UHGV virus genome: UHGV-0175244
Length of the DNA stretch: 44,935 nt
Reading direction: 5' to 3' (one strand)
Source of the DNA: a virus
In this document: positions 10,442 to 30,832 of the stretch, one piece after another
Layout of the letters: each line of letters opens with the position of its first letter
Numbering within the stretch: position 1 is the first letter of the stretch
Translations under genes and position numbers: made by a program
The notes under the pieces: model-generated
What the model saw: only the letters and a program-made list of their open reading frames with translations
Told to the model about the DNA's origin: nothing
Databases searched by the model: none

Positions 10442-11808
10442 TGCACTGGCACCTTCAGAGGGATCACCGGCACAAAGCCGGGATGCGTAATGGCATTACG
10501 CCGGATAATGTCCGCGTCACGCGCCGCGTTATCAAACCAGGTCGCCGCCAGCACCAGCGCGGGTAAAACCTCATCCGGTGTGCGCTGAATGATCCGTGCA
10601 GACTGTTCAAGGCGCGTGTTGATATCCGCATTCAGATCTGCTTTCACCCGGCGCAGCGCCAGAAACAGCGCATCACTGGTTGTACGGGACAACTCCTTAT
10701 CAATTGCCGTATTCAGTGTGTCGCGAATGTCAGTCAGTTCTTCCCACGTCGGCAGGTCAACCGTGTTTTTCACCGCCGGTGCATTGTTCAGTGCCGGATG
10801 CGTGACGGAAGGCCAGCCGGTGCTCTGCGCAGGTGTTGTTGCCTGCCCCACTGCGGAATTCAGCATCACCGCGGAAGTTGTTGGCGCAGGCAATCGGGTG
10901 ACGGCATACGCCGCTTCACTGATTGCGGTCGTACGAAGGGTGCTGGCAACCACATTACGCTGCTGCGTAGCCGTGGCGGTGGTTTTACTGTCCGTTTTCC
11001 AGACGCCGCGCGGTTGCAGATCGCTGCCGAGGCTGACACCGGAAAGCGTTTTGATCATGGTGACCAGGTCGCTGGCGTTACCATAAAGGCGTTTCCCGGT
11101 ACGCCACATTTTCTGCACCTGCTCAACGAAATTTTTGCCTGACGATGGCGGCGGCAGAAGTACCGAGATATCCCCCTGCAACAGCCTGGCAGCATCCGAT
11201 ACGGCAGAATCCACCACTTTCATCGCATCAGAAACATACCCCAGCATTATGCTGGCATTACCGATAACGTCGTTCTGCACGAAATCCGCCACACCATCGA
11301 TACTGAAACCGCTGAAGCTGTCACTGATGCAGTCATCCAGTGCAGAACAGGATGACATCAGCGTCTGCGCCGTCGCCGCACCTGAAGTGGGGTAAGAGAG
11401 TTCTCCCGCTTCGACAAACTTCAGGTCAAAGCGGACAATACGCCCTTCACTCTTCGATGTGCTGACCCGAACTTCCCCGTCAACACAGACTTTCAGCTCA
11501 CCGTAAGTCGGATGGACAAGCGTGCCGGGACCGGGTTTATTCAGCGCGTCAATCAGGCGATCGCGCTGGTCAAAGCAGTCATCTCCCACCACATAAGCTG
11601 TGATGGACGGGCGGAAAGTGATTTTCCCCAGGTCTTCGGTATAGGGTTTGTCGCGGTTCGGGTATTCGTGTGTTTCCACACGACGGCCGGTTCCCGCACT
11701 TTCTTCTTCAACCTTAAACGGCACACCGCGAAATGACGCGTCCTGAAGTCTGTCTTTCCACGTCATATAAACTCCGTACATAAAAAATCCCACCGGAGTG
11801 GGACTCAT
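10438..11808 (-). CDS. DNA circularisation protein N-like (Mu gp43-like) tail protein
   Basis: 456-aa ORF; true start probably an internal ATG (11781 or 11766). Confidence 0.7.
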   Translation of the reverse strand: MSPTPVGFFMYGVYMTWKDRLQDASFRGVPFKVEEESAGTGRRVETHEYPNRDKPYTEDLGKITFRPSITAYVVGDDCFDQRDRLIDALNKPGPGTLVHPTYGELKVCVDGEVRVSTSKSEGRIVRFDLKFVEAGELSYPTSGAATAQTLMSSCSALDDCISDSFSGFSIDGVADFVQNDVIGNASIMLGYVSDAMKVVDSAVSDAARLLQGDISVLLPPPSSGKNFVEQVQKMWRTGKRLYGNASDLVTMIKTLSGVSLGSDLQPRGVWKTDSKTTATATQQRNVVASTLRTTAISEAAYAVTRLPAPTTSAVMLNSAVGQATTPAQSTGWPSVTHPALNNAPAVKNTVDLPTWEELTDIRDTLNTAIDKELSRTTSDALFLALRRVKADLNADINTRLEQSARIIQRTPDEVLPALVLAATWFDNAARDADIIRRNAITHPGFVPVIPLKVPVQ

Positions 11809-11826
11809 TAACAGATTAATTTTTCA

Positions 11827-13662
11827 TTACCTGCCAAAGCGCGTATAGCCAACATCATGGCTGACATCAAAACCGCTGGATCGCGTTTCCATAACCCGCA
11901 TCCCCGGAGGCAAATTCACAAAAGAGACCTTGATCTCACCATCAACTTTTGGCGCAGAAGCTTTGTTAATCATGAAGGGATTCGAGCCTGTGGCATCGGA
12001 GGCGTTGTTTGACTGAGCCGGATCCACCGCCGGATAAGGTGTGTATCCCCGCGCCGGTATTCCCGTCCCATAAGCATCATAAGCACCCGCGCCCCACTGC
12101 GCAGAGTTAATGGCATCGACCGTGTCACCGGAACTGTCGGTAAACCACTCAATAATTGGCTTCAGCTTGTCCCACATATCCTGAAACCACTTAACAACCG
12201 GCCCCCAGTTATTGATCACCATCCCCAGCGGCGACCAGGCAAAAACTTTCTTAAGGAGTTCCCAGCCGGCCTCAAAATAAGGACCAATGGTTTCCCAGAG
12301 TTTCTTAAAATAAGGTCCGACAACATCCCAGTTAGTGATAATTAATCCCGCAGCCAGGGCTATCGCCGTCGCAATCATGCCAATCGGCGTCATCGACATG
12401 ATCCTGCTGACAATACTGATGGCACCGCCAACGCCCATCAATCCCAGTTTCAGAATCGCAAGACCGGCAGCAAGCCCGACGACGCCGCGAATAACCCGGG
12501 GATTTTCATCCGCAAACTTCGTGAATTTTTCCCCCAACTCCCCCAGCCATTGCGTGATATTTTTAGCGTCACCAGAAAATGCGCCGCCAATAGCTGCAAG
12601 ACCGTTAGTTGCGGTCCCCGTCATTGCCTCCCACAGGTTGGACAGCGTACCAAGCTGAGCCTGAACACGTTTATTCAGGCTGGCCTGTTTATTCATCTTC
12701 TGCTGGGTCTGATCGTAGCCATCCTTTCCTTTATCGATTAGTGCATTGACCACCTGAAGGGTTTCGGCATCATCACCAAATATTGCCTTAAGTACACCAG
12801 TTCGTTTAACGTCGGTCAGTTTTCGCAGCTTTGCCAGTTGCCTGAACATGTTATCAAGACCGCCAAAACTCCCTTTGCCGTCAGTAAAATCGAGCTGTAC
12901 CCCGAGTTTCTGGCGGGCCATGATTTTATTGACGTCCCTGATTTTCTTAACGCTTAATCCGGACTGGATAACTTTTCGCAGGGCGTTACCTGCCGACTCC
13001 CCGTTCATCCCCATCTGATCCATCATGACGCTGATGGGGGCAAGGCTCTGTGCAGCCTGAAGACCGTCCTTGTTCACCATCTTCAGAACAGAGCTGGTTT
13101 TAGTGAAGAAGGACAACATGTTGGTATCGTCAACGCCCAGATAAAACGCCTTCTGGATAGTGTCGAACAGCCCCATCATGTCTTCTGACGCCGTTCCGGT
13201 AGCATCCTGCATCTTTGCAGCAAACTCAGCAGCCGCTTCCGGTGTTTTTTTCAGTTGTACCGCAAGATAAGCTGTCGCTTTACCCACACCGCCAAGAATG
13301 TTTTCTGCCGGGATCCCCTGACGCACCAGCATCTGCATCATGTTCTGGAAATCAGCCGTTGTACCGGGTAGCTGGTTACCCAGACCAATAGCCAGTTTAT
13401 TGATGTCCTGAAAGCTCTTTCCGACCTCACCGTTCGCATCCATCATGGCAACTTTCAGCCCGGTGGCGGCGTTTTCCTGATCGGCATAAGATTTCAGGGA
13501 AAGCGTCAGACCCGCAGCCAGTCCGCCACCAAGCGCCAGCCCACCCTGTGACGCTTCTTCCGCCTGGCGTTTAAATCCCCGGATTTTCTTTTGCATTTTC
13601 GACAGCGCGGGAGAAAGCCTGTCGACACCGGTGATCAACGCCTTAAGCTCAAATTCAGCCAT
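11827..13662 (-). CDS. tail tape measure protein
   Basis: 611 aa, Ala/Gly-rich with coiled-coil and hydrophobic segments; downstream of frameshifted chaperone. Confidence 0.85.
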   Translation of the reverse strand: MAEFELKALITGVDRLSPALSKMQKKIRGFKRQAEEASQGGLALGGGLAAGLTLSLKSYADQENAATGLKVAMMDANGEVGKSFQDINKLAIGLGNQLPGTTADFQNMMQMLVRQGIPAENILGGVGKATAYLAVQLKKTPEAAAEFAAKMQDATGTASEDMMGLFDTIQKAFYLGVDDTNMLSFFTKTSSVLKMVNKDGLQAAQSLAPISVMMDQMGMNGESAGNALRKVIQSGLSVKKIRDVNKIMARQKLGVQLDFTDGKGSFGGLDNMFRQLAKLRKLTDVKRTGVLKAIFGDDAETLQVVNALIDKGKDGYDQTQQKMNKQASLNKRVQAQLGTLSNLWEAMTGTATNGLAAIGGAFSGDAKNITQWLGELGEKFTKFADENPRVIRGVVGLAAGLAILKLGLMGVGGAISIVSRIMSMTPIGMIATAIALAAGLIITNWDVVGPYFKKLWETIGPYFEAGWELLKKVFAWSPLGMVINNWGPVVKWFQDMWDKLKPIIEWFTDSSGDTVDAINSAQWGAGAYDAYGTGIPARGYTPYPAVDPAQSNNASDATGSNPFMINKASAPKVDGEIKVSFVNLPPGMRVMETRSSGFDVSHDVGYTRFGR

Positions 13663-13837
13663 GTGTGCGTTTCTCCTGCTCTATCCTGTTTGCCTGACTG
13701 ACCAGCAAGGGAATTTCACTGATCGGCATATTCAGCAATTCGAAGGGATTAATGCGCCAGTAGCTGGCGCAGTCAAAGAAGCGATCAGTGAGGTATTCAG
13801 CCGTCAGGCCTGGAGGAAAAAACCGGCCACAAGCCAC
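13655..13837 (-). CDS. tail assembly chaperone -1 frameshift extension
   Basis: -1 frame ORF overlapping the chaperone end; slippery heptamer T TTT TTC (plus-strand gaaaaaa at about 13816-13822) lets the ribosome shift into this frame. Confidence 0.55.
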   Translation of the reverse strand: MACGRFFPPGLTAEYLTDRFFDCASYWRINPFELLNMPISEIPLLVSQANRIEQEKRTHG

Positions 13838-14073
13838 GCCGCTGCATTCAGGTCTGCCGGAGACATCTGGTCGACAGAGCTTTGCGGCACTTTCGCCAGC
13901 CGCACAATGTATTTCGACACCACATGCGCCAGAAGTCTGACGGACTCATCCTGATTCATCTGGTAGGGATACCCCAGCTCGCGGACATCTTTCCCGGTGG
14001 GCTCATCAAACTCCAGTACGGAGAGTGTCTCGCCATGAGCGGTAATCGGTTTCTTTAACTCAAGCTCTTTCAT
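13804..14073 (-). CDS. tail assembly chaperone (short, in-frame product)
   Basis: 89-aa ORF between tube and tape-measure genes; ends just after slippery site. Confidence 0.65.
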   Translation of the reverse strand: MKELELKKPITAHGETLSVLEFDEPTGKDVRELGYPYQMNQDESVRLLAHVVSKYIVRLAKVPQSSVDQMSPADLNAAAWLVAGFFLQA

Positions 14074-14429
14074 TACTGGTAATCCCCTTCTTCACCGTGG
14101 AATTCAAGATCGACCGTGCCTTCTTCGGCATTATGGTTCGCTTCGCCGTGCAGCCAGGCAGACGACAGTACATAGACCTGACCGTTCGCCAGCTCGGCAG
14201 TGATGGTCATCTCATCAGACGAGGTGATTTTGTTCACCGGAAAATTCTTCGGCACCTTGAAGGTCCCTTTGACATAAGGCGCACGGTGAGTTTCCTTGCG
14301 GTCCACTGAACCGTCCAGGCCGATGATGTCATCATTGACCGTCCTGTTCATGGGCACCTCAATGCCGCCGGTCAGCGATAGCTGCTGACCGTCAATTTTG
14401 AAATAACAGGTTCCCCCGATACGGGCCAT
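14073..14429 (-). CDS. tail tube protein (Mu gpM-like)
   Basis: 118 aa, immediately downstream of sheath gene. Confidence 0.8.
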   Translation of the reverse strand: MARIGGTCYFKIDGQQLSLTGGIEVPMNRTVNDDIIGLDGSVDRKETHRAPYVKGTFKVPKNFPVNKITSSDEMTITAELANGQVYVLSSAWLHGEANHNAEEGTVDLEFHGEEGDYQ

Positions 14430-15925
14430 TATGCGGACTCCTCTGAATACTGAAGACGGAACTGGTTAACCACGGCAAAGACACGCAACTGGTTAACATA
14501 GTCAGGCGGGAACAGCGTGTTCAGGCGGTTCGGATCGCTGGCATCACGCTCCACAACCAGGTACTGCTTAAACAGTTCGTAGTTTTCCACGATCCCCGCA
14601 CGCTCAAGCTGACGGTAGGTTGCCAGCAGTTCCCCTTTGATCACCGCCGGGGTGACAATCGCCTGACCGGGACCAAAGCGGGTACCGTCACTGGCAAGCT
14701 TGTGACGCCCGTACTTACTGGTAATGACGGATTTCAGTTTGCGCAGTACATAGGCACTGGTATGCAGCGTCTCGCTGTCGAGGTAGCTGTTATCCGCAAC
14801 CCCGTAAGCGTTTTTCCTGTACGTGGTGACATCACGCTGAATGCGCAGCACCCCGCTTTCGACATATGCCGTTGCCACGCCATGAGACAGCAGGGTCTGT
14901 TGTTCGGTCATCGTGAACCGTTTCCCCTTCGGCGCAGGCAGCATACCCACCAGCTCACCGGTCTGCGTGGGACGTGCCGGATCGTTGCGAATAAACACCG
15001 CTGCGCGGGCGGTACGGCTTGCCGCCAGCTCATCGGCAGGCGTCTGGGTCTCTTTTTCGTACCCCGCCAGGGTAATGTGCTGCTGGTTAAACTGGTCACC
15101 TGCGGTCACCAGCTCTGACAGCGTGCCGATCTTTGCCGTATACACATGACCATACAGCTGACGCGCATAGCTCCAGCGACCGCTGGTATCGTTCATCTCG
15201 GTCACCAGCGTGTTAACGGAGGCCGTGTCGTTGAACGGCAGGCCGATATAATCAAACGGCTCATCCGCCATTGCAGCCACCGCGCCGGTGAGAACCGGAG
15301 CACCCGTTCCGGCGGTACCCGTCGCCACGGCAATCTGTACGCCCGCTGGCAGCACTTCGCCCCCACCGAAGCCGTAGTAATTGAGGCTGACAGGAATTTC
15401 ATTCCCGCAAAGCCCCTTATGACGCGCGGTCAGCGTGACCACACCAGCCGAAGATGAAGCTGTAAACGGCAGAGTCGGAACGGCATTGATGGCATCCTGG
15501 ATACTGCTGGCAATCGTCGTGACGTTATCGCCGTTGGTCACCGGAGCCTGCACGCGGGTACGTCCCACATAGACATTCACCGTGCCGCTTTCGGTTGCTT
15601 CCCCGGTCACCGTCAGCGTAACCGTTGCCGCCGCGCCTGTGGCTTCCGGAACGGCAATCACATACAGCTCACCAAACGGGTCGGTCTGGCGATAAGCCTC
15701 GACCATACGCGCCAGCTGACTTCCCGCACCACAAATCTGGCGTGCATAGTCTGCCGACGGCATTAGCACCAGACTGTTGGCAACAATCTCTGCACCGTTA
15801 TTGGCATGACCAATCAGCAGCGATGCCCCGCTGCTCTGTGCAGTATTCGCAGCCTGGTTATCCATTTCCGCATAAAACAGCGGAACCAGCGTATTCGACG
15901 GAATGGTGTTAAAGCTTGTCGTCAT
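14429..15925 (-). CDS. contractile tail sheath protein (Mu gpL-like)
   Basis: 498 aa; N-terminus MTTSFNTIPSNTLVPLFYAEMDN... characteristic of sheath proteins. Confidence 0.9.
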   Translation of the reverse strand: MTTSFNTIPSNTLVPLFYAEMDNQAANTAQSSGASLLIGHANNGAEIVANSLVLMPSADYARQICGAGSQLARMVEAYRQTDPFGELYVIAVPEATGAAATVTLTVTGEATESGTVNVYVGRTRVQAPVTNGDNVTTIASSIQDAINAVPTLPFTASSSAGVVTLTARHKGLCGNEIPVSLNYYGFGGGEVLPAGVQIAVATGTAGTGAPVLTGAVAAMADEPFDYIGLPFNDTASVNTLVTEMNDTSGRWSYARQLYGHVYTAKIGTLSELVTAGDQFNQQHITLAGYEKETQTPADELAASRTARAAVFIRNDPARPTQTGELVGMLPAPKGKRFTMTEQQTLLSHGVATAYVESGVLRIQRDVTTYRKNAYGVADNSYLDSETLHTSAYVLRKLKSVITSKYGRHKLASDGTRFGPGQAIVTPAVIKGELLATYRQLERAGIVENYELFKQYLVVERDASDPNRLNTLFPPDYVNQLRVFAVVNQFRLQYSEESA

Positions 15926-16079
15926 CGGTGTTCACCTTTTTATTCACGCGCCGGATATCACCCGCTGCTTCACGGCGCAGCCAGTAGTTGTTCTCGTCAA
16001 CATTTCGCCCTTCGGCGGGCAAAAGGTCGCCGCGGGCAGGGTCAGGCACTGACCGCCCTTTAACAGGTTTGACAAACAT
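15909..16079 (-). CDS. small phage protein (DUF2635 / Mu gp38-like?)
   Basis: 56-aa ORF absent from ORF track (below cutoff); GAGGA RBS 7 nt upstream; MFVKPVKGRSVPDP...; overlaps sheath start by 17 nt. Confidence 0.4.
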   Translation of the reverse strand: MFVKPVKGRSVPDPARGDLLPAEGRNVDENNYWLRREAAGDIRRVNKKVNTDDDKL

Positions 16080-16087
16080 GAGGATCC

Positions 16088-16648
16088 TCAGGAAGGAAGG
16101 GTTATTTCGGTGTGATGTTCGATATCGCCGTCAGGCCCGTTACCGGGATCGAGATAATCGACATCAATCGCCAGCGTTTGCAGTTCATCCAGACTGTTCA
16201 GATCATCCTGCTGGCGGGTATCGTCTTCAGTCAGCTCGCTGATGACCGAAAAATCGAACTGATAAATCAGCTCATGACGATTCAGATCCAGCAGCGTGCC
16301 GCCGTCATAGGTAATCGGGTTACCGCACGCTTCCGGGTTCCAGCCCAGCAGGGCCTTAAAGAGCATCTGCCGGACATCGTCCACCACATCATACGAGGCA
16401 AACTGACCGCGCTCATCACGCCCGTTACTCAGTATGACAACCACGGAGAAGCCCTCTTTCAGCTCCTGCCAGTAGTCGGTCTGGCTTTTGTTTTCTCCCG
16501 GAGAGTCATCACCCGGTACCACATACGCCGCCGGGAGTCTCAGCTTTCCGACCTCCGGCAGATTTTTGAACTGTGCCGCGCCTGCCACCCGGTTTTCAAA
16601 ATACGGGCAGCGGGCACGCAGCGCAGCAATAACAGGCGTCAGTTTCAT
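16088..16648 (-). CDS. phage structural protein (Mu gp37-like?)
   Basis: 186 aa; synteny upstream of sheath. Confidence 0.45.
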   Translation of the reverse strand: MKLTPVIAALRARCPYFENRVAGAAQFKNLPEVGKLRLPAAYVVPGDDSPGENKSQTDYWQELKEGFSVVVILSNGRDERGQFASYDVVDDVRQMLFKALLGWNPEACGNPITYDGGTLLDLNRHELIYQFDFSVISELTEDDTRQQDDLNSLDELQTLAIDVDYLDPGNGPDGDIEHHTEITLPS

Positions 16649-17151
16649 CTGTGTCGTCGCTCCGGCTTCAGTGATTTACGCAATTCCCGCGCCAGAAAAT
16701 AGCGTGTCCAGCTGCGGTTCTTTTCAAGAGTTTCCACCATGAAGTTATTACGTGGAGCCAGTCGCCAGCCGCTGCCACCGGATGCACCACGATGATGACT
16801 ACGACGACGTTTTGCTCCTCCCCGGACACCAAAAAACAGAAACGCCGGATAGAAGTCACCAGAGATCATCCGGTTCCCCTTCCCGTTGCGCTGGTTAGGG
16901 GCAATGCGTGTCATAAAACCGGCTCGCTTTTTACTGGCTCTCGGCACCATATAACCAATCGAACGAGCCAGGCGTCCGGTCTGATAACCGGGGTTTTCAC
17001 CCGGTGCCGATCGCGCACGGCGCATCACCAGCCGACGGGCATCACGCATATGACGCTGCCCAATCGTGACAAACGCCCGCCGGACACGGGCGCGGTTAAA
17101 GCGCATCTCGGCGGGCTGCTGAACATCAACGTGAAAAAAGGGAGTCGCCAT
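16645..17151 (-). CDS. virion morphogenesis / tail completion protein
   Basis: 168 aa, basic; position between head-tail joining genes and tail genes. Confidence 0.5.
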   Translation of the reverse strand: MATPFFHVDVQQPAEMRFNRARVRRAFVTIGQRHMRDARRLVMRRARSAPGENPGYQTGRLARSIGYMVPRASKKRAGFMTRIAPNQRNGKGNRMISGDFYPAFLFFGVRGGAKRRRSHHRGASGGSGWRLAPRNNFMVETLEKNRSWTRYFLARELRKSLKPERRHR

Positions 17152-17536
17152 TGCTGCCTCCGTGACTCTGCCTACATTCGCCCAGCTCCGTACACTCCAG
17201 CAGCAGAAAGCGCCGCGCCCCGTTCAGATCACGCTGACGTTTCACCCGGTACACACTGTCACCGCAGACCACCTCATAATCAGCGGTGATCCCCCGGCGG
17301 TAACGAATGGTGATGTAATGGGTGATGGCGTCCCCGGTCTGCGCGGTTTCCTGCCAGGTGGTGGCACTGGTCTGGACAACCTTCGCCCATGCCCGGAACG
17401 CAACCGGGTATTGAGGCTCCACGCCAAAGTTATCCGCGGGCATATCCACCCGCTGGCGGATCAGGACGCGTTTATTCAGTTCGCCGGGGTCCGGCAGAAT
17501 GTAGGTTGCGCTGGTCTGCGCCTGACGAATTTTCAT
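17126..17536 (-). CDS. head-tail joining (head closure) protein
   Basis: 136 aa; synteny. Confidence 0.5.
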   Translation of the reverse strand: MKIRQAQTSATYILPDPGELNKRVLIRQRVDMPADNFGVEPQYPVAFRAWAKVVQTSATTWQETAQTGDAITHYITIRYRRGITADYEVVCGDSVYRVKRQRDLNGARRFLLLECTELGECRQSHGGSNGDSLFSR

Positions 17537-17856
17537 TGCGGAAAGTACCTGTACGGGCCGACAAGCCAGCCAAAACTCTGCGGCATGTCGAGTTTCTCCA
17601 CTTCCGTAACCGACGAGCGGTTTTCGTAAAAATGGCTGATAAGCATCAGCATCCCCAGACGAATATCATCCGGCAGGTGCAGCCCGTCCGGATCGCTGTC
17701 CGGAATGGTTTCATCCGGTGCATAGAGCTTCCGGTTCAGATACGTTTCCGTCCGCTTTTGTGCCGCACATGCCAGCAGTTGCAGATGGCGGTCATCAGTA
17801 TCGAAATCCTCATCCAGCCGGAGTTGGGCTTTAATCTCTTCCATTGTCAGAAGCAT
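17533..17856 (-). CDS. head-tail connector protein (gp6-like)
   Basis: 107 aa; synteny directly after capsid-associated genes. Confidence 0.55.
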   Translation of the reverse strand: MLLTMEEIKAQLRLDEDFDTDDRHLQLLACAAQKRTETYLNRKLYAPDETIPDSDPDGLHLPDDIRLGMLMLISHFYENRSSVTEVEKLDMPQSFGWLVGPYRYFPQ

Positions 17857-17858
17857 AC

Positions 17859-18059
17859 TCAGCCCTCTTTACTGGTCGTGGCTTTTTTCTCTTTTGCCGC
17901 TTTACTGCTTTTTGCACTGATTCCGCGCTCTGCTAACCCGGCCTGAAGTGCAATCTCCTGCACCCGGGCAGGAAGCGCCCCGTCGTCATACTCACCGGCC
18001 TGAATGACCTCAACACGCATACCGTCCGGTGACCATTTCAGATCTTGTTTCAGGATCAT
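17859..18059 (-). CDS. small hypothetical phage protein
   Basis: 66 aa, Lys/Ala-rich C-terminus; between capsid and connector genes. Confidence 0.4.
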   Translation of the reverse strand: MILKQDLKWSPDGMRVEVIQAGEYDDGALPARVQEIALQAGLAERGISAKSSKAAKEKKATTSKEG

Positions 18060-18107
18060 GATTCTTCACCCATCAGAACAGGGGCGCAGTTCAGCGCCCC
18101 TGAGTGA

Positions 18108-19312
18108 TTACGCCGCAGCAATCTTCAGCAGTTTGATGGCCTGCGAATCGACCAGCATGCCGCCGGTGCGCTTGGTGGTATAAAAACCGACAAACGGTTT
18201 ATTGGTGTACGGATCGCGCAAAATGCGGGTACCGATACGGTCAACGATGGTGTAACCCCGTTTGAAGTTACCAAATGCAATGGCTTTCGCATCCGCGGCG
18301 ATATCCGGCATCTGCTCGTTTTCAGCGATACCGTAACCCGCCAGAGAGGACGGCTGCCCCAGTTCCAGCCCCGGACGCCACAGATAGTTACCCTCGGTGT
18401 CTTTCAGCAGACGAATGGCAAACAGGCTGTTGTTGTTCATCATGAACTTCGCACCGGTGCGATGTGCCTTACGCAGCGTGTAAATCAGTTTGATAATGGC
18501 ATCAGCGGTCACTGCCGTCGCTTCACCGGATACAATATGCTGAAGTTTGCCGAACGCACGTACCTTATCGGTTTCATCCGTGGACTCATACGCCAGGAAC
18601 CCTTTCGGCTTCTTGGTGCCATCACCAGTGGTAAAGGCAATTTCTTCCTGTTCGGCAAATTCGGTTGCCAGCTCGCTGTTGATCCAGGCCTCTACGTTGA
18701 AGAAGGCATCATCCAGCATTTTCTGGGTGGCCTGCGGGTTACCGTAGATTTCCCCCATGAAAGGTTCAATCAGTCCCAGTTTTGAGGTGGCGGTCTGGGA
18801 GCGCGCGTCAGTCTCGCCAACCCATCCGGAAGCCGTGCCGCCCAGATTCACCAGTTTTTTGTAGTCGGAACCGCCAACAGTGATTACCGTGGCTTCCTGG
18901 CGCATCACCACTTCATCTTTCAGCAGGGTGAGAATGTTGCGATCCAGTGCTTCCGGCACGGCATAGCCACCGTCTTCATCGGTGCCCACCTGCAATGCCT
19001 TACGCTCCAGATCGCGCAGACCGTCTTCACGGCCTTTACGCAAAAAGCCCACAAACGCTTCTTTATGCTCGGTGGCCAGTTTATTTTGCGCGCCACCTGC
19101 CGGACGTTTCAGCTCAAGCAGCTCTTTTTCAAGATCGCTTTTGAGATTTTCCAGCTCGCTGAGTTTCCCGTTCAGGGTTTCCACCTGCCCGGCAAGCTTG
19201 CCTTTTTCCTGCTCAATCGCATCCACGCGCTTGTCGTTCTTTGCTTTAAGTCGTCAAACTTCTGCTGCAGCTCCTGCGCGACCTGTTCGACATCTTTAAT
19301 ATCTACCGCCAT
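18108..19312 (-). CDS. major capsid protein, HK97 family (apparent frameshift near N-terminus)
   Basis: main ORF 18108-19226 opens with GTG and no RBS; ATG at 19312 with AGGAG RBS opens a 46-codon ORF encoding a coiled-coil delta-domain-like N-terminus in another frame. Confidence 0.8.
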
Positions 19313-19326
19313 CGTATTTCTCCTGA

Positions 19327-20013
19327 TTAGAAGTTCAGATTTTTCAGTGCATTCAGTGCAGAGCCCACATCCTCAGCGTCGCGCAGGGACAGTGCGCCAT
19401 AGCCCCCGGCCATGAATGCTTTGGCCTGGGTACGGGAGAGTCCGACATCACGCAGGACTCTTTCGATTTTTTTCTGTTCGGGGATTTCCCCGCGGGCCAG
19501 TGCGTTCTTGACGTCGCTGATCCGCGCCTCGTCGTTAGACGGGAACGTCACCAGGCTGACTTCCCAGAGGTCGATTTCTTTCAGCAGAAAGGCTTCTTTG
19601 CTCCGGTCGTATTCCCAGTCTTTCAGGACGTACCCAATAGAAAGGCCGGTTAACGAACCGGCCTTCATGTGTGCATGTGCGCGTTTTGCGAGGGGATCAT
19701 CATCAATAAGCAACCGTCCCCTGACGTAAAGCCCGACATCGTCTTCCTTCATTTCGGTGTAAACACCGATGGGTTCATCCATGCGGTGCTGCCAGAGCAG
19801 CGCAGGTAACGCTTTTCTGTCACTCCACGCCCGCAGGGAAGCAGCAAATGCCCCGGACATCACCACATCATCGTGGCTGTCCTTTACACCAAAGACGGAG
19901 CCATACCCTTCAAACTCACCGGAGTCACTGACAGATTTCAGACTCAGCGGTACATCAAGACGTTGTTTCGTCTGCATTGGCGTTATCCTTCTGCTTACCG
20001 GCCTTACTGCCAT
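19327..20013 (-). CDS. HK97-family prohead protease
   Basis: 228 aa; EFEGYGSVFGVKDSHDDVV...GAF motif block. Confidence 0.9.
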   Translation of the reverse strand: MAVRPVSRRITPMQTKQRLDVPLSLKSVSDSGEFEGYGSVFGVKDSHDDVVMSGAFAASLRAWSDRKALPALLWQHRMDEPIGVYTEMKEDDVGLYVRGRLLIDDDPLAKRAHAHMKAGSLTGLSIGYVLKDWEYDRSKEAFLLKEIDLWEVSLVTFPSNDEARISDVKNALARGEIPEQKKIERVLRDVGLSRTQAKAFMAGGYGALSLRDAEDVGSALNALKNLNF

Positions 20014-21196
20014 CGGAGGGTTTCGTGGTCATGTTCATCGGTGTGAGATAGACATCACCACCGGGACGCGGATTCATATCTTCCAGGTCGCGGCAGTCAT
20101 TGGGAGAGTAAATTCCCCAGTTGATCCCGGTGGCGTAGGCTTCAAAACGGGACTTCATATCCCCGCGCAGTAACGCCCCGGCGTTAAATTTGGCGTAATA
20201 AACGCCCTGCTTACTTTTTCGTACCAGTCCGGTGTTGATCCGCTGTTCGATGCGGGTCAGATACGGCACCAGTGAATAGTTGATAAATCCCAGCCCCAGC
20301 TCTTCGATATTGTTGAAGGTGGCGCGATCGGTGTTCTGCACCATGTGCAACGGCACCCGGAACAGACGACAGATTTCTTCAAGCTGAAACTTGCGGGTTT
20401 CCAGGAACTGGCTGTCCTCGGCGTTCAGCGCCATCGACTTCCAGTCCAGCCCCATCTCAAGGATCATTGGGCGGTGAGCATTGCCAAGCCCGGTGTGACG
20501 CTCCTCAAAATCTTTCTTCAGGCGCTCGTAAGCCTGATCTGACAGCGTCTGCTCTGTACGCAACACACCCGACGTCACCGCGCCATTGCTGAACAGTCTG
20601 GCCCCGTGCTCTTCGGTCGCTGCCGCCAGCGATATTGCCTCGCGGGCATAGGCGATGGGATTCAGCCCCACCAGTCCGTCCAGCGTCAGCGTGCGCACAT
20701 GCCAGATATCCTCCTGGCTCAGTACATCCGTGGAGCCATCCGGGAATGTGACCTGATAGACCGGCTCCCAGCTACTGTTAAGCTTCGGTACCACACAGCC
20801 GGGATCGACGGGCAGCAGTTCAGCCACTTCGCCAAATGTTTTCACTTTGTAGGCGTAAAAGTTTCCCCGCAGGCACAGACAGGTGACCACCAGCTCCCAG
20901 AACTCCTGCGGCGTCATATAGCCATTGGGATGCGTGGAGATCAGCTTATGCAGACGTTCGCCAGTGGCTCTCTGCTTCAGGCTGCCGTTCAGGTGATACA
21001 GGTTGCAGGGCAACATCCCGACCGACTCCGCCAGCACCCTGACGCAGGAAAAAACCGCCGTCAGTCGCATGGCCCTCTGGCTGCTGATCTGCTTTCCGGT
21101 ATAGGTGTCGTATGACAGCCCGATAGCATCCACCAGCTCTGCTGGCGTGGTCACCGGTGCGTCACTTTTTCGTTGAAATAATCCCGAAAAGAACAC
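19955..21196 (-). CDS. portal protein, HK97 family
   Basis: 413 aa; position between terminase and protease. Confidence 0.9.
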   Translation of the reverse strand: MFFSGLFQRKSDAPVTTPAELVDAIGLSYDTYTGKQISSQRAMRLTAVFSCVRVLAESVGMLPCNLYHLNGSLKQRATGERLHKLISTHPNGYMTPQEFWELVVTCLCLRGNFYAYKVKTFGEVAELLPVDPGCVVPKLNSSWEPVYQVTFPDGSTDVLSQEDIWHVRTLTLDGLVGLNPIAYAREAISLAAATEEHGARLFSNGAVTSGVLRTEQTLSDQAYERLKKDFEERHTGLGNAHRPMILEMGLDWKSMALNAEDSQFLETRKFQLEEICRLFRVPLHMVQNTDRATFNNIEELGLGFINYSLVPYLTRIEQRINTGLVRKSKQGVYYAKFNAGALLRGDMKSRFEAYATGINWGIYSPNDCRDLEDMNPRPGGDVYLTPMNMTTKPSDGSKAGKQKDNANADETTS

Positions 21197-21378
21197 TATT
21201 TACCTCCACCAACAGACATCTGTGTACGGTCGAGATATCGCGCTACCAGCCACGACCAGAACAGGCACAACGCCCCGGCAACAACAAACCCCGCCGGGGG
21301 ATAAATCAGCCAGGCGCCATACGCCAGCAAAAGCGCCCCCAGCACGCCCACCAGAGGCGCGAGAATCAGCATGATCAT
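21196..21378 (-). CDS. small membrane protein
   Basis: 60 aa, two hydrophobic segments; between terL and portal. Confidence 0.35.
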
Positions 21379-21389
21379 AATTACCTCAG

Positions 21390-23123
21390 TTAAAGCGAGC
21401 GGATCCCGTAGGACTCAATGTGGTCGGACAGCGTGTCTTCTTTCTCATACAGCATGGCTCTGCCAACCGCCATAATCAGCGCAACTGCACCATCGATTTT
21501 GTTTTCCGCCTGCTCTTTGACGGGCTTCACCACATCATCGTTACCCGGAATGGTTTTGCCGACCACGTTACCGATACACCAGGTCATGATGGGATTGCCA
21601 TCATGATGAAAGCGCCCCGATTCAATTGCCGCTTCCAGCTCTTTCATCGGGTCGGACATGTTGGTGTAGTTCTGAATGATGGTGATGGGATTCAGGTCTT
21701 CATCAGCAAGGTCATGTGACAGCCCGGTCGCCCCGAAGGGGTCGATGGGTGACTCGCTGACCGGGCTGATTTTGTTCGCCGCTTTGGCCTCTTCGAGGAT
21801 GTAGCGATAATCCACCTCCGCACCATCGGTAACGGTCAGGACGCCCATTTCCACCCATTTCTGAAAGCGTTCGGCTGTCCGGCGATCTTCATTTTTCTCG
21901 ACGCTGTACACCGTGTCATACGGTACCCAGAAACGCGGGGCCACACTATAGTAATGCGTTTTACCGTCAATCTCGCGGGTATAAAGTCGCGCCATGCTGT
22001 TCATATCCAGCTTACGCGCCAGGTCAAAGGCCAGAATGCACGGCTGCCCCTCGAACTGCTCAAGGGTCAGTGATTTATCCTCGCAGCTCTGCCAGCTCAC
22101 CAGGTTGAAATACGCCGAACGCGCCGACACCCAGATATTGAGGTGTTTTGTTTTAAAGACGTTTGCCAGACGGGCGTTATTTTTCGCACGCTGCTGCTGA
22201 CTTAACAAAAATTCGCGATAAACCGACACGCCAATATTCGGGTTAGCTTTTTCCAGCACCTGCGGGTCGGTCCAGTCATCGCCTTCGTCAACGGTATAGA
22301 TGATCCCGAACAGTTCATCGTTGGGTACCGACCCGTTGAGCATCTCGATAACTTCCCGTCGCTTGTCGTAGCACGGCCCCTCAATGTTGTACCCGGCAGT
22401 AGTAATGGCCCACATCAGTGGCTGACGTCTCGCCCCCATCCCGGTAAGCATCGTGGTGTAAAGCGCATCGGTGGCGTGCTCGTGATATTCATCCACCACC
22501 GCACAGTGGGGTGATGAACCATCACCGGGGTTACCGATCAGCGGTTCAAACCGCGCGCCATCCTCCGGACGATTCATGTTTGAGGCGTTAACCTCAATCC
22601 CGAACGCTTCCGTCAGCATGGGTGTGCGTTTACACATCAGTCGCGCCGGGCGAAAGACTTCCCACGCCTGTTTCTCTGTCGTGGCACCGGAATACACTTC
22701 CGCGCCAAACTCGTTATCACAGGCAAAACAATACAGGGCAACACCGGCAGAGATTGCCGATTTGCCGTTCTTACGGGGGATTTCGGTATACACCTCACGG
22801 AAGCGGCGCAGCCGGGAGCCTTTATTGACCCAGCCAAACGCGCAGCAGATCACAAAGAGCTGCCACGGCTCCAGCGTGATGGGCATCCGTTTAAATGCCC
22901 ACTCACCCTTGGTGTGCGGCAACAGCTGAATAAATTTCGCGGCTCGTTCAGCCAGGTCCTTGTCGAAGCGGTAACGAAACGACTTACTTTTTTCCTCCAT
23001 CAGGTCATCAAGATGGCGCTGGCAGGCCTGAATCACAAACTGGCAGGCCACAATCTTTCCGCGCACGACATCCCGGGCATACTGATTGGCAGCATTTACG
23101 TTGGGGTAAGATTTCCGGCTCAT
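21390..23123 (-). CDS. terminase large subunit
   Basis: 577 aa; ATPase and nuclease domain character; follows terS. Confidence 0.95.
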
Positions 23124-23623
23124 GATTCGATGATTTTCAGAAACGGGTTAGTGGCTTTCTTCTGCCCCGCCAGGCCAATCAGACGCTGGCGGCTGCTGGG
23201 GTCGAGTCCGAGCATTGCCCCCGTACTGCTCATCTCGGACTCCTGTTCTTTTTTGGCGGTCAGCTCCGGATTTTTGACCATACCGCCCATTGCACCGGTG
23301 ATGGTGTTGCCCTGTCTGGCAATATTTTTCACGGCACGTCGCCAGAACTCATAGGCCACGCACCACCGCTCAAGTACCGCCAGGTCAGTCACGCACAGCA
23401 GGCCCTGACCGCAGAGTTCTTTGGTTGTCAGTTGCCACATGATCGTGGCGAGAGGGAGATCTTCTTCAGCGAACCACTCCGGTGGGTCAGCACCTTTGAT
23501 GGGCGTAAAAACAGGTTCATCTTTATTCAGGGCTCGCTTGCCGGGGTTTCCGGCCAGCACCTTGCGCGCCGTTGGCTTGGGGCGACGCCCGGAACGCCCC
23601 GCCGTTCCAGCCATATGCGGCAC
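23120..23623 (-). CDS. terminase small subunit (P27 family)
   Basis: 167 aa; basic N-terminus [18 protein letters not shown]... Confidence 0.85.
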
Positions 23624-23721
23624 TCCTGGTTAAATTTCATTTTTCGCGGGTATAAAAAAACGATGGGGCGGGCAGTCCGGAAGACGTCAGGCTGCAGGGA
23701 TTTGACCCGCCCTCCCCTCAT

Positions 23722-23767
23722 GCAGTTGAGAATTATTATCACTAGGCAGTTGAGAATTATTATCACT
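23722..23767. repeat. tandem 22-bp direct repeat (x2) in candidate cos/terminase-binding region
   Basis: gcagttgagaattattatcact twice, 2-bp spacer; lies between HNH and terS, overlapping HNH stop. Confidence 0.45.
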
Positions 23768-24113
23768 TTAGCCGTTCACGGGCCGTCTTCGCCTTATGGC
23801 ACGGCCAGCACAGGCTCTGCAGATTACTGTCTGCATCGGTGCCGCCATGCGCTTTAGGGATGATGTGGTCAACGGTTTTAGCTTCACGCACCACACCGGC
23901 ACGCAGACATAACTGACACAGGCCTTTGTCACGTTTCAGCACACGCGCACGGATAACGTCCCACTTCGAACCATAACCGCGCTGGTGACGGGATTGTCCT
24001 GGCTTATATTGCGTCCAGCCTTCGCTTTTGTGGCTTTCACAATAGCCTGACGGATCTGTGGTGGTATGGCGGCAACCGCGAACACGGCAGGCTTTTGGGA
24101 TTCGTGGCGGCAT
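23763..24113 (-). CDS. HNH endonuclease (terminase-associated)
   Basis: 116 aa; Cys-rich N-terminus, DHIIP...H...N...C...H HNH motif. Confidence 0.85.
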   Translation of the reverse strand: MPPRIPKACRVRGCRHTTTDPSGYCESHKSEGWTQYKPGQSRHQRGYGSKWDVIRARVLKRDKGLCQLCLRAGVVREAKTVDHIIPKAHGGTDADSNLQSLCWPCHKAKTARERLK

Positions 24114-24524
24114 ATGTACTAATCTCCGATTTATCCAAATTTCACTGCCATAATGCCGACATTCTCTGCCATTATTGACTCCGTTTATCCGTTAAAAGGG
24201 ATATCAGTTAAGTTATCCCGTGCAGGGTATAAGCCATTGTCGAGACCATTCATTGAATGGCCTCTGCAATAACCGATGTCTTTCCATCAGTCCGCCACCA
24301 CAAAGAATCTTTTTTGCCATAAGGCAGGAGGTTCATCTTTCAGTGGCTGCCAGTGTTATTTCCCCACTTACTGGCTTGGGTTGTTTCGCTGTATTGCCGC
24401 AACTGGTGGTGCACAGATTTAGTTAAATCTGTTCTCGCCTGAACTATCTTTTACATACCCGGATTGTGGGGATGTAAATCACGGTTTCATTATCAAGCCC
24501 ACCCGTAGATGGGCTTTGGAATGG

Positions 24525-25043
24525 TCACTTTGGCAGTCCGGGGATCGATATTTGCGCCTGCTGCTCAAGCCTTTCGATTCTTGCTATGAGTTGCGGTTTT
24601 TTGATCCTGCCCCAGCGGTTCAGCAAGCGTCCTGACATACTGGCAACATCCTTTTCCTTCATGAACTCCAGCATTAACTCGTTGTGCTCTCTTTGGTATG
24701 AGTGAGCCATCTCCATCAGCCTGTCACGCATCCAATTAAATGCTTTGATAAACGCCTCTTTGATGGCGGCAGCTTTTTTGCCGGTAAACGACATGATGAT
24801 GTACATCGCGCCGTCTTTGGAAATTTCATATTCAACATACTGATTACCCTTGTGTTCATAGGTAACCCGCGAAAAGTTGCTGGTTAGAAATTCATCCGAA
24901 CAGTCTAGCTTTTCGATTTTCTGAATGATGTGGTGATGCTGCTTGTCGAAGTAAGCTGCTACCTTGCGGGAGGTTGTGATCACGCGATCACCAGAAACAA
25001 CCACCATGTCCCGGAAATCGAGATTAGCCAATTGATGATTCAT
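24525..25043 (-). CDS. Rha-family phage regulatory protein
   Basis: about 172 aa from internal ATG (M13 of listed ORF); Rha-like N-terminal domain. Confidence 0.7.
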   Translation of the reverse strand: MNHQLANLDFRDMVVVSGDRVITTSRKVAAYFDKQHHHIIQKIEKLDCSDEFLTSNFSRVTYEHKGNQYVEYEISKDGAMYIIMSFTGKKAAAIKEAFIKAFNWMRDRLMEMAHSYQREHNELMLEFMKEKDVASMSGRLLNRWGRIKKPQLIARIERLEQQAQISIPGLPK

Positions 25044-25192
25044 AGCGTCTTTACCTTTTAGAAAGTGAGCCTGTCTCACAGAAAAGCCGTCCCGAGATGG
25101 TCGCCACCATATACGGCAGTTCTCAGGCTCAACTTTCTGAAAGGCTCGGGTGATGTAATATGCGCGTGAGATGCGCTGTGAAATTCAGATGT

Positions 25193-25217
25193 AAAAAAAG
25201 CCCCGCATCGCGAGGCT
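25193..25217 (-). terminator. rho-independent terminator after lysis cassette
   Basis: minus-strand RNA hairpin agcctcgc-gat-gcggggct followed by U7. Confidence 0.5.
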
Positions 25218-25248
25218 CATTAAATGGACTTTGTGATTTGCAAAAAAA

Positions 25249-25707
25249 TTATTTCAGGCATTGCGTCCTGATGTACTCCTGCAGGTAGTTAACCTGCGCG
25301 GTTATCCTGTCGATTCCACTTCTGAGACGGTAATAATTGAGTTCAGCATCTGCTGTAAGTCTTGGGCTTTCTCCATCGCCCATGCCGCTGGCTCTGGTCG
25401 TTGACTTTGCACAGGTGGCGGCGACTTGCAGGCGCTTACGACCAGCAGAAACATCAGCACGGAGACTTTCGATAGTCGCGTTAGCATCAGCAAGCTCCTT
25501 TGTGTATCTGGCGTCGAGTTCTGCTACATCACGTTGACGCTTCTGCATGTCAGCGATAGTGTCATTTGCCAGGCTGAGTTGCTCAGTCACTTTGTCCCGC
25601 TGCCTTTTGAACTCGGTGGCGTTGTCGTGGTAGTGGCTGGCCAGCCAGCCGAGGCTGACTATCAGGCAGATCACAACAGCGCTGATAATGGCTGCTAATC
25701 GGCTCAT
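25249..25707 (-). CDS. Rz-like i-spanin
   Basis: N-terminal TM segment then coiled-coil; start overlaps endolysin stop; contains embedded Rz1 frame. Confidence 0.75.
25302..25493 (-). CDS. Rz1-like o-spanin (lipoprotein) embedded in Rz
   Basis: +1 frame inside Rz; lipobox ...LLVVSAC followed by Pro-rich segment. Confidence 0.7.
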
Positions 25708-26213
25708 TTCTGCCCCCACAAACAAACTTCGCGCTCAATCTCGCGGCGAGTCACCAGGCCTTTCCACTGCTTGCCCTTGGCATAGGTCCAGCGGCGCAAC
25801 TGGTCACACGCCCACTTCTGGTCGCCCTGGTTGATTTTGCGCAGTAGCGTTGAAGTCTGGAAATTGCCAGCGCCGACGTTATACGCGAATGAGTAAAGCG
25901 CCCCACGCATTGTTTCGGGGATCGGCTTCTGGATGTATGGGTTAATCTGGCGGGCGACGGCGTTCAGGTCTTTACTGAGAAGCGCACGGCATTCAGCCTC
26001 GGTGTACTTCTTGCCAAGAATGATATCTTTGCCAGTATGGCCATAGCAGACAGTCCAGACGCCTACCACATCCTGATAAGGGTTGTATCGCACACCTTCA
26101 AGACCATCGTTACCGGTTGGGCCAGTGATGAGCGCAGAGGCAATGGCTATGGCGCCACCGCCGCCGGCGATCACGCCAATCAGTTTATTCCTCATTGATG
26201 GCGTCATGCTCAC
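25704..26213 (-). CDS. SAR endolysin (T4-lysozyme-like, GH24)
   Basis: 169 aa; Gly/Ala-rich N-terminal SAR segment; E...D...T catalytic spacing ([17 protein letters not shown]). Confidence 0.85.
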
Positions 26214-26524
26214 CCCTGTGTATCACTTGCGATCCGCTTCAAGGCCTCGGTTACCACTTCGGCTGAAGCCGGGCGGTTACTTCCTGGCTTAGCGGAGACA
26301 TCAGCCAGATAACTGGCCAACAGTTGCGTGCGCTTTTTCTCTTCATCCAGTCGCTCTCGCTCTTCCTTGCGCTTTGCGTAATACGTCTTGATTGTGAAGA
26401 AGGCAGAGATCAGGGCGCCAATGATGAAGACATAATCCTGCAGACTCAGGACGGAAAAGATACCAAGCAAGGCTGACCACCAGTAAGGCAGATTGTGACC
26501 ATCGGTTGGGTTCATACGTTGCAT
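26210..26524 (-). CDS. holin (two TM segments)
   Basis: 104 aa; two hydrophobic helices then highly charged C-terminus; overlaps endolysin start. Confidence 0.65.
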
Positions 26525-26719
26525 CTCTCACCTCCGATAATGTTCGGGGTGCTATCTGTAGTCAGTAAAAGGTTCAGGGCCGTCGGGCTGATTTACCAAC
26601 AAAGCGTCGAGGGTGATTCCCGCGACCCTGAAAATAAAAAAAACCGCTCAAGGCGGGAAGAAATACCAAGGGTAAAAAGTGACGGCGCGGTAGCCGTAAT
26701 GGTCCCAAGGTAGAGGGAT

Positions 26720-26794: not shown

Positions 26795-26802
26795 AATCTG
26801 GT

Positions 26803-30830: not shown

Positions 30831-30832
30831 GC

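What the first reader, a model, noticed from the sequence alone, without database searches (positions are those of the whole stretch)
19172..19312. Major capsid gene appears split by a frameshift in its N-terminal coiled-coil region
The ATG at 19312 has an AGGAG RBS and opens a 46-codon frame (MAVDIKDVEQVAQELQQKFDDLKQ...) that reads like the start of an HK97 delta domain, then stops at about 19172. The main capsid frame is open from about 19253 (KNDKRVDAIEQEKGKLAG...) but has only a GTG and no RBS. A single-base indel in the A-rich run ttaaagcaaagaacgac (about 19237-19254) would fuse them into a continuous coiled-coil sequence. A -1 ribosomal slip at AGG AAA AAG is also possible but fits the protein less well. 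Either the prophage is defective for head assembly or the assembly has a homopolymer error.
Basis: seen in the sequence. Interest (0 to 1): 0.55.

Follow-up and report, generated by a model that had tools for sequence, protein, structure and literature searches.

The report
One-base deletion breaks prophage capsid gene
An otherwise complete Klebsiella pneumoniae prophage has lost a single C at codon 22 of its HK97-type major capsid gene, so it almost certainly cannot build phage heads; this is an ordinary, recent case of prophage decay and not a sequencing error or a programmed frameshift.

Summary
A 46-codon ORF (19312-19172, minus strand, AGGAG RBS) overlaps the main capsid frame, which is open from 19253 to 18108.

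**What relatives show.** Every relative has one 401-aa capsid gene. The window lacks one C between 19248 and 19247: relatives read GAC GAC TTC AAA GCA, the window GAC GAC TT-AAA GCA. The lost base is not in a homopolymer.

**Distribution.** No matching record among complete E. coli genomes, no GTDB species representative, no viral or metagenome contig and none of 76 contigs sharing a lineage marker has the deletion. Separate assemblies of at least two sequencing runs plus an ENA scaffold do reproduce it, each 100% identical to the window. It is therefore a real mutation private to one K. pneumoniae strain.

**Context.** The other 27 head, tail and packaging genes, the att sites and the early and lysis genes checked look intact, so the lesion is recent.

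**Not programmed.** There is no canonical in-phase slippery heptamer, no stimulatory RNA structure (z = -0.37) and no conservation of the split. The deletion did create an in-phase C_UUA_AAG; a -1 slip there would give full-length capsid with only F22L, but published rates for unstimulated tetramers are near background (about 0.15%).

Interest is low.

The parts
19172..19312 (-). Upstream fragment of the capsid gene. It has the authentic start codon, and codons 1-21 are identical to the intact capsid protein. Codon 22 (TTA, Leu) spans the deletion junction. Codons 23-46 are out of frame, ending at TGA 19174-19172.
19320..19324 (-). AGGAG Shine-Dalgarno sequence, 7 nt upstream of ATG 19312. It is the only good ribosome-binding site for the capsid gene.
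19247..19248 (-). Deletion junction. One C present in all relatives (GACGACTTCAAAGCA) is missing between T19248 and A19247. It is not in a homopolymer run.
18108..19253 (-). Main capsid reading frame, now without its start. It encodes residues 22-401 (L instead of F at 22, otherwise identical to WP_000257493.1). Pfam Phage_capsid PF05065 covers residues 115-398 of the intact protein. The first in-frame start is GTG 19226, with no RBS.
19244..19250 (-). C_UUA_AAG in the ATG frame, created by the deletion itself. A spontaneous -1 slip of tRNA-Lys from AAG (19246-19244) to AAA (19247-19245) would give a 401-aa capsid differing from wild type only by F22L. The expected rate is near background.
   Evidence: product; literature rates
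19202..19208 (-). A -1 slip here gives a 401-aa product with 14 substituted residues (22, 24-36).
19327..19977 (-). Prohead protease (Peptidase_S78), intact. It is 100% identical to the E. coli relative, and its stop lies 14 nt before the capsid ATG. There is no separate scaffold gene.
1804..43647 (.). The whole 41.8-kb prophage in K. pneumoniae. It is bounded by exact 46-nt direct repeats (1804-1849 and 43602-43647, the latter being the 3' end of tRNA-Arg(UCU)). The gene set is otherwise complete, from gtrABC through tail, head, terminase, lysis, Q, replication, cI/cII and recombination to xis/int.

Best explanation
**What it is.** A real, recent, strain-private deletion of one C in codon 22 of the major capsid gene. 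The gene belongs to an SfIV/ST64B-like temperate phage integrated at tRNA-Arg(UCU) in Klebsiella pneumoniae.

**How it works (shown).** Ribosomes start at the only good RBS and ATG (19312) and make 21 correct residues. They then read 25 out-of-frame codons and stop at 19172.

**How it works (inferred).**
- The HK97-fold body of the protein (residues about 115-401) and most of the N-terminal coiled-coil scaffold domain are not made in useful amounts.
- In HK97 the capsid protein aggregates without its fused scaffold domain, and residues 2-66 form the coiled-coil towers that recruit the portal.
- No restart product could therefore assemble. GTG 19226 has no RBS, and GTG 19184 would give a product lacking residues 1-43.
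- The prophage can probably still excise, replicate and lyse, but it cannot build heads. It is a defective prophage one mutation away from function.
- Near-background -1 slippage at the C_UUA_AAG created by the deletion may give about 0.1-0.2% of normal full-length (F22L) capsid. That is too little to matter.
For: **The lesion**
- The window lacks one C relative to three E. coli prophages, SfIV and ST64B.
- Nearly all full-length E. coli hits span 1302 nt against 1301 nt of query.

**Private to this strain**
- No place in the 1,064 matching E. coli records shares the junction.
- No match in GTDB species representatives, IMG/VR or JGI metagenomes.
- 76 contigs share the GTA codon-3 marker, and all have an intact junction.

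**Real, not an artefact**
- The exact 46-aa and 372-aa products are on 5-10 contigs.
- The fetched contigs from Logan SRR5963258, Logan SRR5963406 and ENA ERZ28628485/SAMN07501313 are 100% identical to the window, deletion included.
- The lost base is not in a homopolymer.
- No other coding indel occurs in 17.7 kb aligned to the closest relative.

**Recent**
- The 27 other structural and packaging genes are full length and gap-free.
- The att repeats are exact.
- The early and lysis genes examined give full-length family matches.

**The N-terminus matters**
- Pfam Phage_capsid starts at residue 115.
- Residues 1-70 are heptad-patterned with no proline.
- The N-terminus is conserved down to 78% nucleotide identity.
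- The HK97 scaffold-domain data are in PMC10275583.

**Precedent**
- ST64B prophages in Salmonella fail to make infectious particles because of a frameshift in a tail assembly gene (PMC7067206).
Against: - No read-level data were available, so independence rests on separate assemblies. These probably come from one study and one strain (accession series SRR5963xxx and SAMN07501313).
- No experiment shows that the prophage is inducible or headless.
- The importance of the first 21-43 residues is extrapolated from HK97, which is only a distant relative. HK97 was not among the seven sequence-level PDB hits at E <= 0.001; the best match was the RcGTA capsid.
- Low-level frameshift suppression or restart cannot be excluded.
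Confidence: 0.86

Rival explanations
1. Leaky, self-suppressing frameshift. The deletion placed A_AAG in phase exactly at the lesion (C_UUA_AAG). A meaningful fraction of ribosomes would slip -1 there and make full-length F22L capsid, leaving the prophage attenuated but not dead.
For: - The -1 slip product is 401 aa with the single conservative core substitution F22L.
- A_AAG is the most shift-prone tetramer in E. coli.
- A (G_UU)A_AAG site is the classic example of a site whose slippage compensated a nearby -1 frameshift mutation (PMC5009743).
Against: - Without a stimulator, Z_ZZN tetramers average 0.147% against 0.112% background. A_AAG reaches 5.6% only with a strong pseudoknot (PMC4066793).
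- The downstream RNA folds no better than shuffled sequence (z = -0.37).
- Capsid assembly needs hundreds of subunits per particle, so about 0.1% output should be ineffective (inference).
Confidence: 0.07
2. Sequencing or assembly error. The strain really has an intact capsid gene and one base was dropped in the consensus.
For: - A single-base gap is the commonest assembly artefact.
- All deletion-bearing contigs may derive from one study.
Against: - The missing C is not in a homopolymer.
- Three separately assembled contigs from different run or sample accessions carry it, at 100% identity over 6-21 kb. In all, 5-10 contigs carry the split products.
- There is no other coding indel in 17.7 kb.
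Confidence: 0.05
3. Evolved programmed -1 ribosomal frameshift, or a genuine two-gene arrangement with a small N-terminal peptide plus a shorter capsid protein.
For: - The two frames overlap by 27 codons.
- The overlap contains two A_AAG motifs in phase.
Against: - The split is absent from all homologues examined, including 1,064 E. coli records, 6 phage or prophage references down to 78% identity, and 76 marker-sharing contigs.
- There is no canonical X_XXY_YYZ heptamer and no stimulatory structure.
- In intact relatives the same nucleotides are read in the other phase.
- The downstream frame has no RBS.
- By contrast, the window's tail-chaperone gene shows what a genuine site looks like: U_UUU_UUC followed by an open 53-codon -1 extension.
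Confidence: 0.02

Closest known systems
HK97 gp5-type major capsid protein with fused N-terminal scaffold (delta) domain, encoded directly after an S78 prohead protease
   Same: - Pfam Phage_capsid (E = 1.6e-79) covers residues 115-398, preceded by about 114 residues of charged, heptad-patterned, proline-free sequence.
- An S78 protease gene lies immediately upstream, with no separate scaffold gene.
- The closest solved structure is the HK97-fold capsid protein of RcGTA (6TB9, E = 8e-75).
   Different: - Here the gene is interrupted at codon 22, so it is a pseudogene of that family.
- The maturation cleavage site of this protein was not determined.
Defective ST64B prophage of Salmonella Typhimurium (frameshift in a tail assembly gene; PMC7067206, citing Figueroa-Bossi & Bossi 2004)
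   Same: - Same phage family: the ST64B capsid region is 92.5% identical in DNA.
- An otherwise complete prophage is disabled by a single frameshift in one morphogenesis gene and is in principle revertible.
   Different: - The ST64B lesion is in a tail gene and is conserved across a widespread Salmonella lineage, giving tail-less particles.
- Here the lesion is in the capsid gene, is seen in one K. pneumoniae strain only, and should block head assembly altogether.
Leaky -1 frameshift mutants suppressed by slippage at (G_UU)A_AAG (reviewed in PMC5009743)
   Same: The mutated sequence reads C_UUA_AAG in phase. It has the same UUA_AAG core, and a slip there restores the downstream frame.
   Different: - No evidence of suppression was obtained here.
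- Measured unstimulated rates for tetramers are near background.
Programmed -1 frameshift of phage tail assembly chaperones (lambda G/GT type)
   Same: Both have two overlapping frames, with the downstream one in -1. A genuine example lies in this same window at 13822-13816 (U_UUU_UUC).
   Different: The capsid split lacks a canonical heptamer, a stimulator and conservation. It is a mutation, not a decoding signal.

Membership tests
HK97-family major capsid protein (PF05065) with fused scaffold domain | Phage_capsid / HK97-fold domain | tested here: met
   PF05065 E = 1.3e-79 on the window's 372-aa ORF. phmmer to the RcGTA capsid 6TB9 gives E = 7.9e-75. PHROG 10 'major head protein' gives E = 2e-102.
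HK97-family major capsid protein (PF05065) with fused scaffold domain | About 100-residue N-terminal alpha-helical coiled-coil domain preceding the fold | tested here: met
   The Pfam domain starts at residue 115. In residues 1-70, 70-88% of a/d positions are hydrophobic against 31-39% overall, there is no proline before residue 71, and 41% of residues are charged. These are sequence proxies only; no structure was predicted.
HK97-family major capsid protein (PF05065) with fused scaffold domain | Prohead protease gene immediately upstream, with no separate scaffold gene | tested here: met
   Peptidase_S78 at 19977-19327. Its stop lies 14 nt before the capsid ATG.
HK97-family major capsid protein (PF05065) with fused scaffold domain | Single uninterrupted ORF encoding scaffold domain plus fold | tested here: not met
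   The frame breaks at codon 22. The window therefore holds a pseudogene of this family, not a functional member.
HK97-family major capsid protein (PF05065) with fused scaffold domain | Proteolytic removal of the scaffold domain on maturation | not testable with these tools
   Needs N-terminal sequencing or mass spectrometry of virions from an intact relative.
Programmed -1 ribosomal frameshift | In-phase canonical slippery heptamer X_XXY_YYZ | tested here: not met
   The overlap contains only C_UUA_AAG, G_AAA_AAG and G_CCG_GGC.
Programmed -1 ribosomal frameshift | Stimulatory RNA structure or upstream SD-like element at the proper spacing | tested here: not met
   MFE -33.6 kcal/mol against a shuffled mean of -32.5, z = -0.37.
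Programmed -1 ribosomal frameshift | Two-frame arrangement conserved among homologues | tested here: not met
   No place in 1,064 E. coli records, none of 76 marker-sharing contigs and none of 6 reference phages or prophages has the split.
Sequencing / assembly indel artefact | Indel lies in a homopolymer or low-complexity run | tested here: not met
   The lost base is a lone C in TT[C]AAA.
Sequencing / assembly indel artefact | Not reproduced in independent assemblies or read sets | tested here: not met
   It is reproduced in Logan SRR5963258, Logan SRR5963406 and ENA ERZ28628485. Read-level support was not inspected.
SfIV / SfI / SfII / ST64B / phiP27-like temperate phages | Gene order HNH, P27-type terS, terL, portal, S78 protease, HK97 capsid, contractile Mu-like tail, with high DNA identity | tested here: met
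   The capsid region is 92-97% identical in DNA to SfIV, SfI, SfII and ST64B. The window is 98.4% identical over 17.7 kb to an E. coli prophage with this gene order.

The most novel reading that the evidence does not exclude
By deleting the C, the mutation converted TTC AAA G into an in-phase UUA_AAG shift site at the lesion itself. If tRNA-Lys slippage there ran at percent level instead of background, the prophage would make small amounts of near-wild-type (F22L) capsid. It would then persist as an attenuated, low-burst phage: a 'self-suppressing' frameshift in a structural gene.
Probability: 0.06. Interest if true: 0.4.

Novelty: already known. Interest (0 to 1): 0.12.

Why it matters
**Practical value.** The capsid gene at 19312-18108 should be annotated as one frameshifted pseudogene, not as a 46-aa hypothetical protein plus a 372-aa capsid protein, which is how automatic gene callers split it. 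Prophage-completeness tools would otherwise score this element as intact.

**Biology.** It is a clean snapshot of the first step of prophage decay: one lesion in an otherwise complete 41.8-kb element. It adds to evidence that this phage family is often disabled by single point lesions. Other examples are the ST64B tail gene and the independent nonsense mutations seen here in contigs L010 and L072.

It opens no new question.

Tried and rejected
- **Homopolymer error.** Rejected: the missing base is a lone C.
- **Generally indel-prone sequence.** Rejected. There are four indels in 17.7 kb. Only this one is coding; the other three lie in the HNH-terS spacer.
- **Programmed frameshift or two-gene arrangement.** Rejected by comparative data and the absence of signals.
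- **Transcriptional slippage.** The longest A run in the overlap is 5 nt. From general knowledge that is too short for RNA polymerase realignment. Not tested.
- **GTA at codon 3 as a private marker for the immediate ancestor.** The marker is shared by 76 contigs. The closest capsid gene (L054, 2 substitutions, intact) sits in a prophage only about 97.8% identical overall, so it is not the direct ancestor.
- **L010 and L011.** They came up with the 372-aa product but have the intact junction. L010 carries a different lesion (Q18 amber). L011 is a contig end beginning with Nextera adapter.
- **Searching the wild-type junction in genome contigs.** I used a window-derived pattern instead.
- **Unavailable papers.** Figueroa-Bossi & Bossi 2004 and Oh et al. 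2014 are not held. They are cited only through papers that quote them.
- **The ORF at 2015-2311.** My recollection that it resembled an ISL3 transposase was not supported: no Pfam hit, and a PHROG 'UmuD-like' hit instead.
- **Not run.** No structure prediction or large protein-database search was run, because neither would change the verdict.

Full report
**Observation**

On the minus strand, AGGAG (19324-19320) lies 7 nt before ATG 19312. The ORF that opens there runs for 46 codons to TGA 19174-19172. A second frame, in -1 relative to the first, is open from 19253 to the stop at 18110-18108. Its first possible start is GTG 19226, which has no Shine-Dalgarno-like sequence upstream.

**What the two ORFs are**

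The 372-aa ORF carries Pfam Phage_capsid (PF05065, E = 1.3e-79). Its best solved relative is the HK97-fold capsid protein of the Rhodobacter gene transfer agent (6TB9, E = 7.9e-75). The gene immediately upstream is an S78 prohead protease.

BLAST against complete E. coli genomes and against phage records finds more than 1,000 close relatives annotated as 'phage major capsid protein'. They include the Shigella phages SfIV, SfI and SfII (95.5-96.4% identity), Salmonella phage ST64B (92.5%), phiP27 (83%) and Klebsiella phages (78%). Nearly all full-length hits span 1302 nt against 1301 nt of query.

An alignment across the junction shows that all five relatives read GAC GAC TTC AAA GCA AAG (D-D-F-K-A-K). 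The window reads GAC GAC TT-AAA GCA AAG, so one C is missing between T19248 and A19247.

At the protein level the two window fragments map collinearly onto one 401-aa protein. Residues 1-21 come from the ATG frame and residues 22-401 from the -1 frame. The only difference from WP_000257493.1 is L for F at position 22. Even the most distant homologues examined begin MAVDIKDVEQVAQ...FDDFKAKNDKR in a single ORF.

**Real mutation or artefact?**

Three lines of evidence point to a real mutation.

- The lost base is a lone C flanked by TT and AAA. It is not a homopolymer-length ambiguity.
- The sequence is not indel-prone. Over 17.7 kb aligned at 98.4% to the closest prophage (E. coli MRSN346647) there are four indels. 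Three lie in the non-coding HNH-terS spacer, and this is the only one in a gene.
- The deletion is reproduced elsewhere. The exact 46-aa and 372-aa products, which can only exist where the deletion exists, are on record on 5-10 contigs. The contigs I fetched are 100% identical to the window over 6.1, 21 and 16 kb, deletion included. They come from Logan assemblies of runs SRR5963258 and SRR5963406 and from an ENA scaffold of sample SAMN07501313.

The accession series and record name suggest a single study, and probably a single strain sampled repeatedly. The independence is therefore at the level of read sets and assemblers, not of lineages. I could not inspect reads.

**How widespread is it?**

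It is not widespread.

- No place in the 1,064 matching E. coli records reaches 99% identity to a 91-nt probe spanning the junction.
- The 34-nt junction has no exact match in GTDB species representatives, IMG/VR or JGI metagenome contigs.
- The window's other distinctive change, GTA instead of GTT at codon 3, is shared by 76 viral or metagenome contigs. All have an intact junction: 71 read TTCAAAG and 5 read the synonymous TTCAAGG. Of the 64 complete copies, 62 encode 401 aa.
- The three GTDB-representative loci that carry the gene are intact too.

**Context**

The flanking FolD is identical to K. pneumoniae FolD (FOLD_KLEP7). The left-flank protein and the integrase are also K. pneumoniae proteins. 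The E. coli collection matches the flanks only at about 80-90%.

The prophage is bounded by exact 46-nt direct repeats at 1804-1849 and 43602-43647. The second repeat is the 3' end of tRNA-Arg(UCU).

All 27 other genes from gtrB through tail, head and terminase to HNH are full length with no gaps. The 25 tail, head and packaging genes from ymfQ to HNH are 95-100% identical in protein to the E. coli relative, and the tail-fibre assembly protein is 85% identical. The remaining genes that were checked give full-length family matches: Rha, spanin, endolysin, holin, Q, NinB, DnaB, O, cII, a cI-like repressor, gam, bet, exo, a methylase, xis and int. The capsid lesion is thus the only visible defect, which implies a recent event.

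**Mechanistic consequence**

Shown: ribosomes starting at the only good start site terminate after 46 codons. The downstream frame has no RBS at GTG 19226 and only a weak, mis-spaced purine stretch before GTG 19184.

Inferred: the N-terminal 70 residues are heptad-patterned, proline-free and highly charged, and they are conserved down to 78% DNA identity. This matches the fused scaffold domain of HK97. Residues 2-66 of that domain form trimeric coiled-coil towers that contact the portal, and without it the capsid protein aggregates (PMC10275583). A restart product lacking 29 or 43 residues should therefore not assemble, and the prophage should be head-less.

The same phage family supplies a precedent. 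ST64B prophages in Salmonella make no infectious particles because of a frameshift in a tail assembly gene (PMC7067206).

**Could translation bypass the lesion?**

Three in-phase Z_ZZN motifs lie in the 27-codon overlap.

- C_UUA_AAG sits exactly at the lesion and was created by it. A -1 slip of tRNA-Lys there yields a 401-aa protein differing from wild type only by F22L, at a heptad core position.
- G_CCG_GGC would give 17.

A_AAG is the most shift-prone tetramer in E. coli, and a (G_UU)A_AAG site is a classic case of slippage compensating a nearby -1 mutation (PMC5009743). However, the systematic study found that tetramers without a stimulator average 0.147% against 0.112% background. A_AAG reached 5.6% only with a strong pseudoknot (PMC4066793).

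Here the downstream RNA folds no better than shuffled sequence (z = -0.37). I therefore expect rescue at about background, which is functionally negligible. This remains the only mildly novel reading.

In intact relatives these nucleotides are read in the other phase, so nothing here evolved as a signal. For contrast, the window's tail-chaperone gene has the real thing: U_UUU_UUC at 13822-13816, followed by a 53-codon open -1 extension that ends at the tape-measure start.

**Comparison and verdict**

This is a frameshifted pseudogene of an HK97-family capsid gene in an otherwise complete SfIV/ST64B-like prophage of K. pneumoniae.

- Programmed frameshifting fails all three defining features tested.
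- The artefact reading fails the two features testable here.

Other knock-outs of the same gene turned up in passing: Q18 amber in L010, Q139 amber in L072 and a disruption after about residue 229 in L039. This shows that such lesions are routine prophage decay. The finding is correct and well observed, but ordinary.

Noticed in passing
window 13816-13822 (minus strand), extension to about 13655: The tail assembly chaperone gene (14073-13804) contains a canonical U_UUU_UUC slippery heptamer 5 codons before its stop. The -1 frame is then open for 53 codons and ends at a TGA overlapping the tape-measure start (13662). This looks like the conserved G/GT-type programmed -1 frameshift of tail chaperones. 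The downstream RNA fold is weakly better than shuffled (z = -1.89).
   Followed up: partly
L010 (Logan SRR8533827) about 1289-1291; L072 (IMGVR_UViG_3300029619_000296); L039 (IMGVR_UViG_2529293239_000006): There are independent knock-outs of the same capsid gene in other prophages. L010 has CAG->TAG at codon 18, L072 has CAG->TAG at codon 139, and L039 diverges completely after about residue 229. About 2 of 64 complete marker-sharing copies are disrupted.
   Followed up: partly
window 23710 and 23722-23767: The spacer between HNH (24113-23763) and terS (23614-23123) is where a cos site would be expected in HNH/P27-terminase phages. Here the window has an exact 22-nt tandem duplication (GCAGTTGAGAATTATTATCACT, twice, 2 nt apart) and a C3-versus-C4 run difference relative to the E. 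coli relative.
   Followed up: no
window 6417-24114 versus 24114-43600: The prophage is strongly mosaic. The tail, head and terminase module in this Klebsiella host is 98.4% identical to E. coli/Shigella SfIV-like prophages. The early, replication and lysis region matches E. coli records only in patches (85-94%), and the integrase is a typical K. pneumoniae one. This suggests a recent inter-genus module exchange.
   Followed up: partly
window 2610-5411 (plus strand): A gtrA-gtrB-gtrC-type glucosylation cassette (GtrA_DPMS_TM, Glycos_transf_2, Glucos_trans_II) sits at the attR-proximal end. Against the E. coli relative, gtrB is 99.7% identical but gtrA only 62% and gtrC only 39%. The serotype-specific parts have therefore been swapped. 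The target in Klebsiella is unknown.
   Followed up: no
window 26720-26794 (minus strand): A tRNA-Gly(UCC) gene is carried inside the prophage, between the Q antiterminator and the holin.
   Followed up: no
window 2015-2311 (minus strand): A 98-aa ORF lies between attR and gtrA. It has no Pfam hit but does hit a PHROG labelled 'UmuD-like protein' (E = 1.5e-21). It may be a moron or a gene remnant at the prophage end.
   Followed up: partly
L011 (Logan SRR29416414) 1-19: The contig begins with Nextera transposase adapter sequence (GATGTGTATAAGAGACAG). This made a gene caller report a '372-aa capsid' identical to the window's truncated ORF, and it is a caution for exact-product look-ups.
   Followed up: yes
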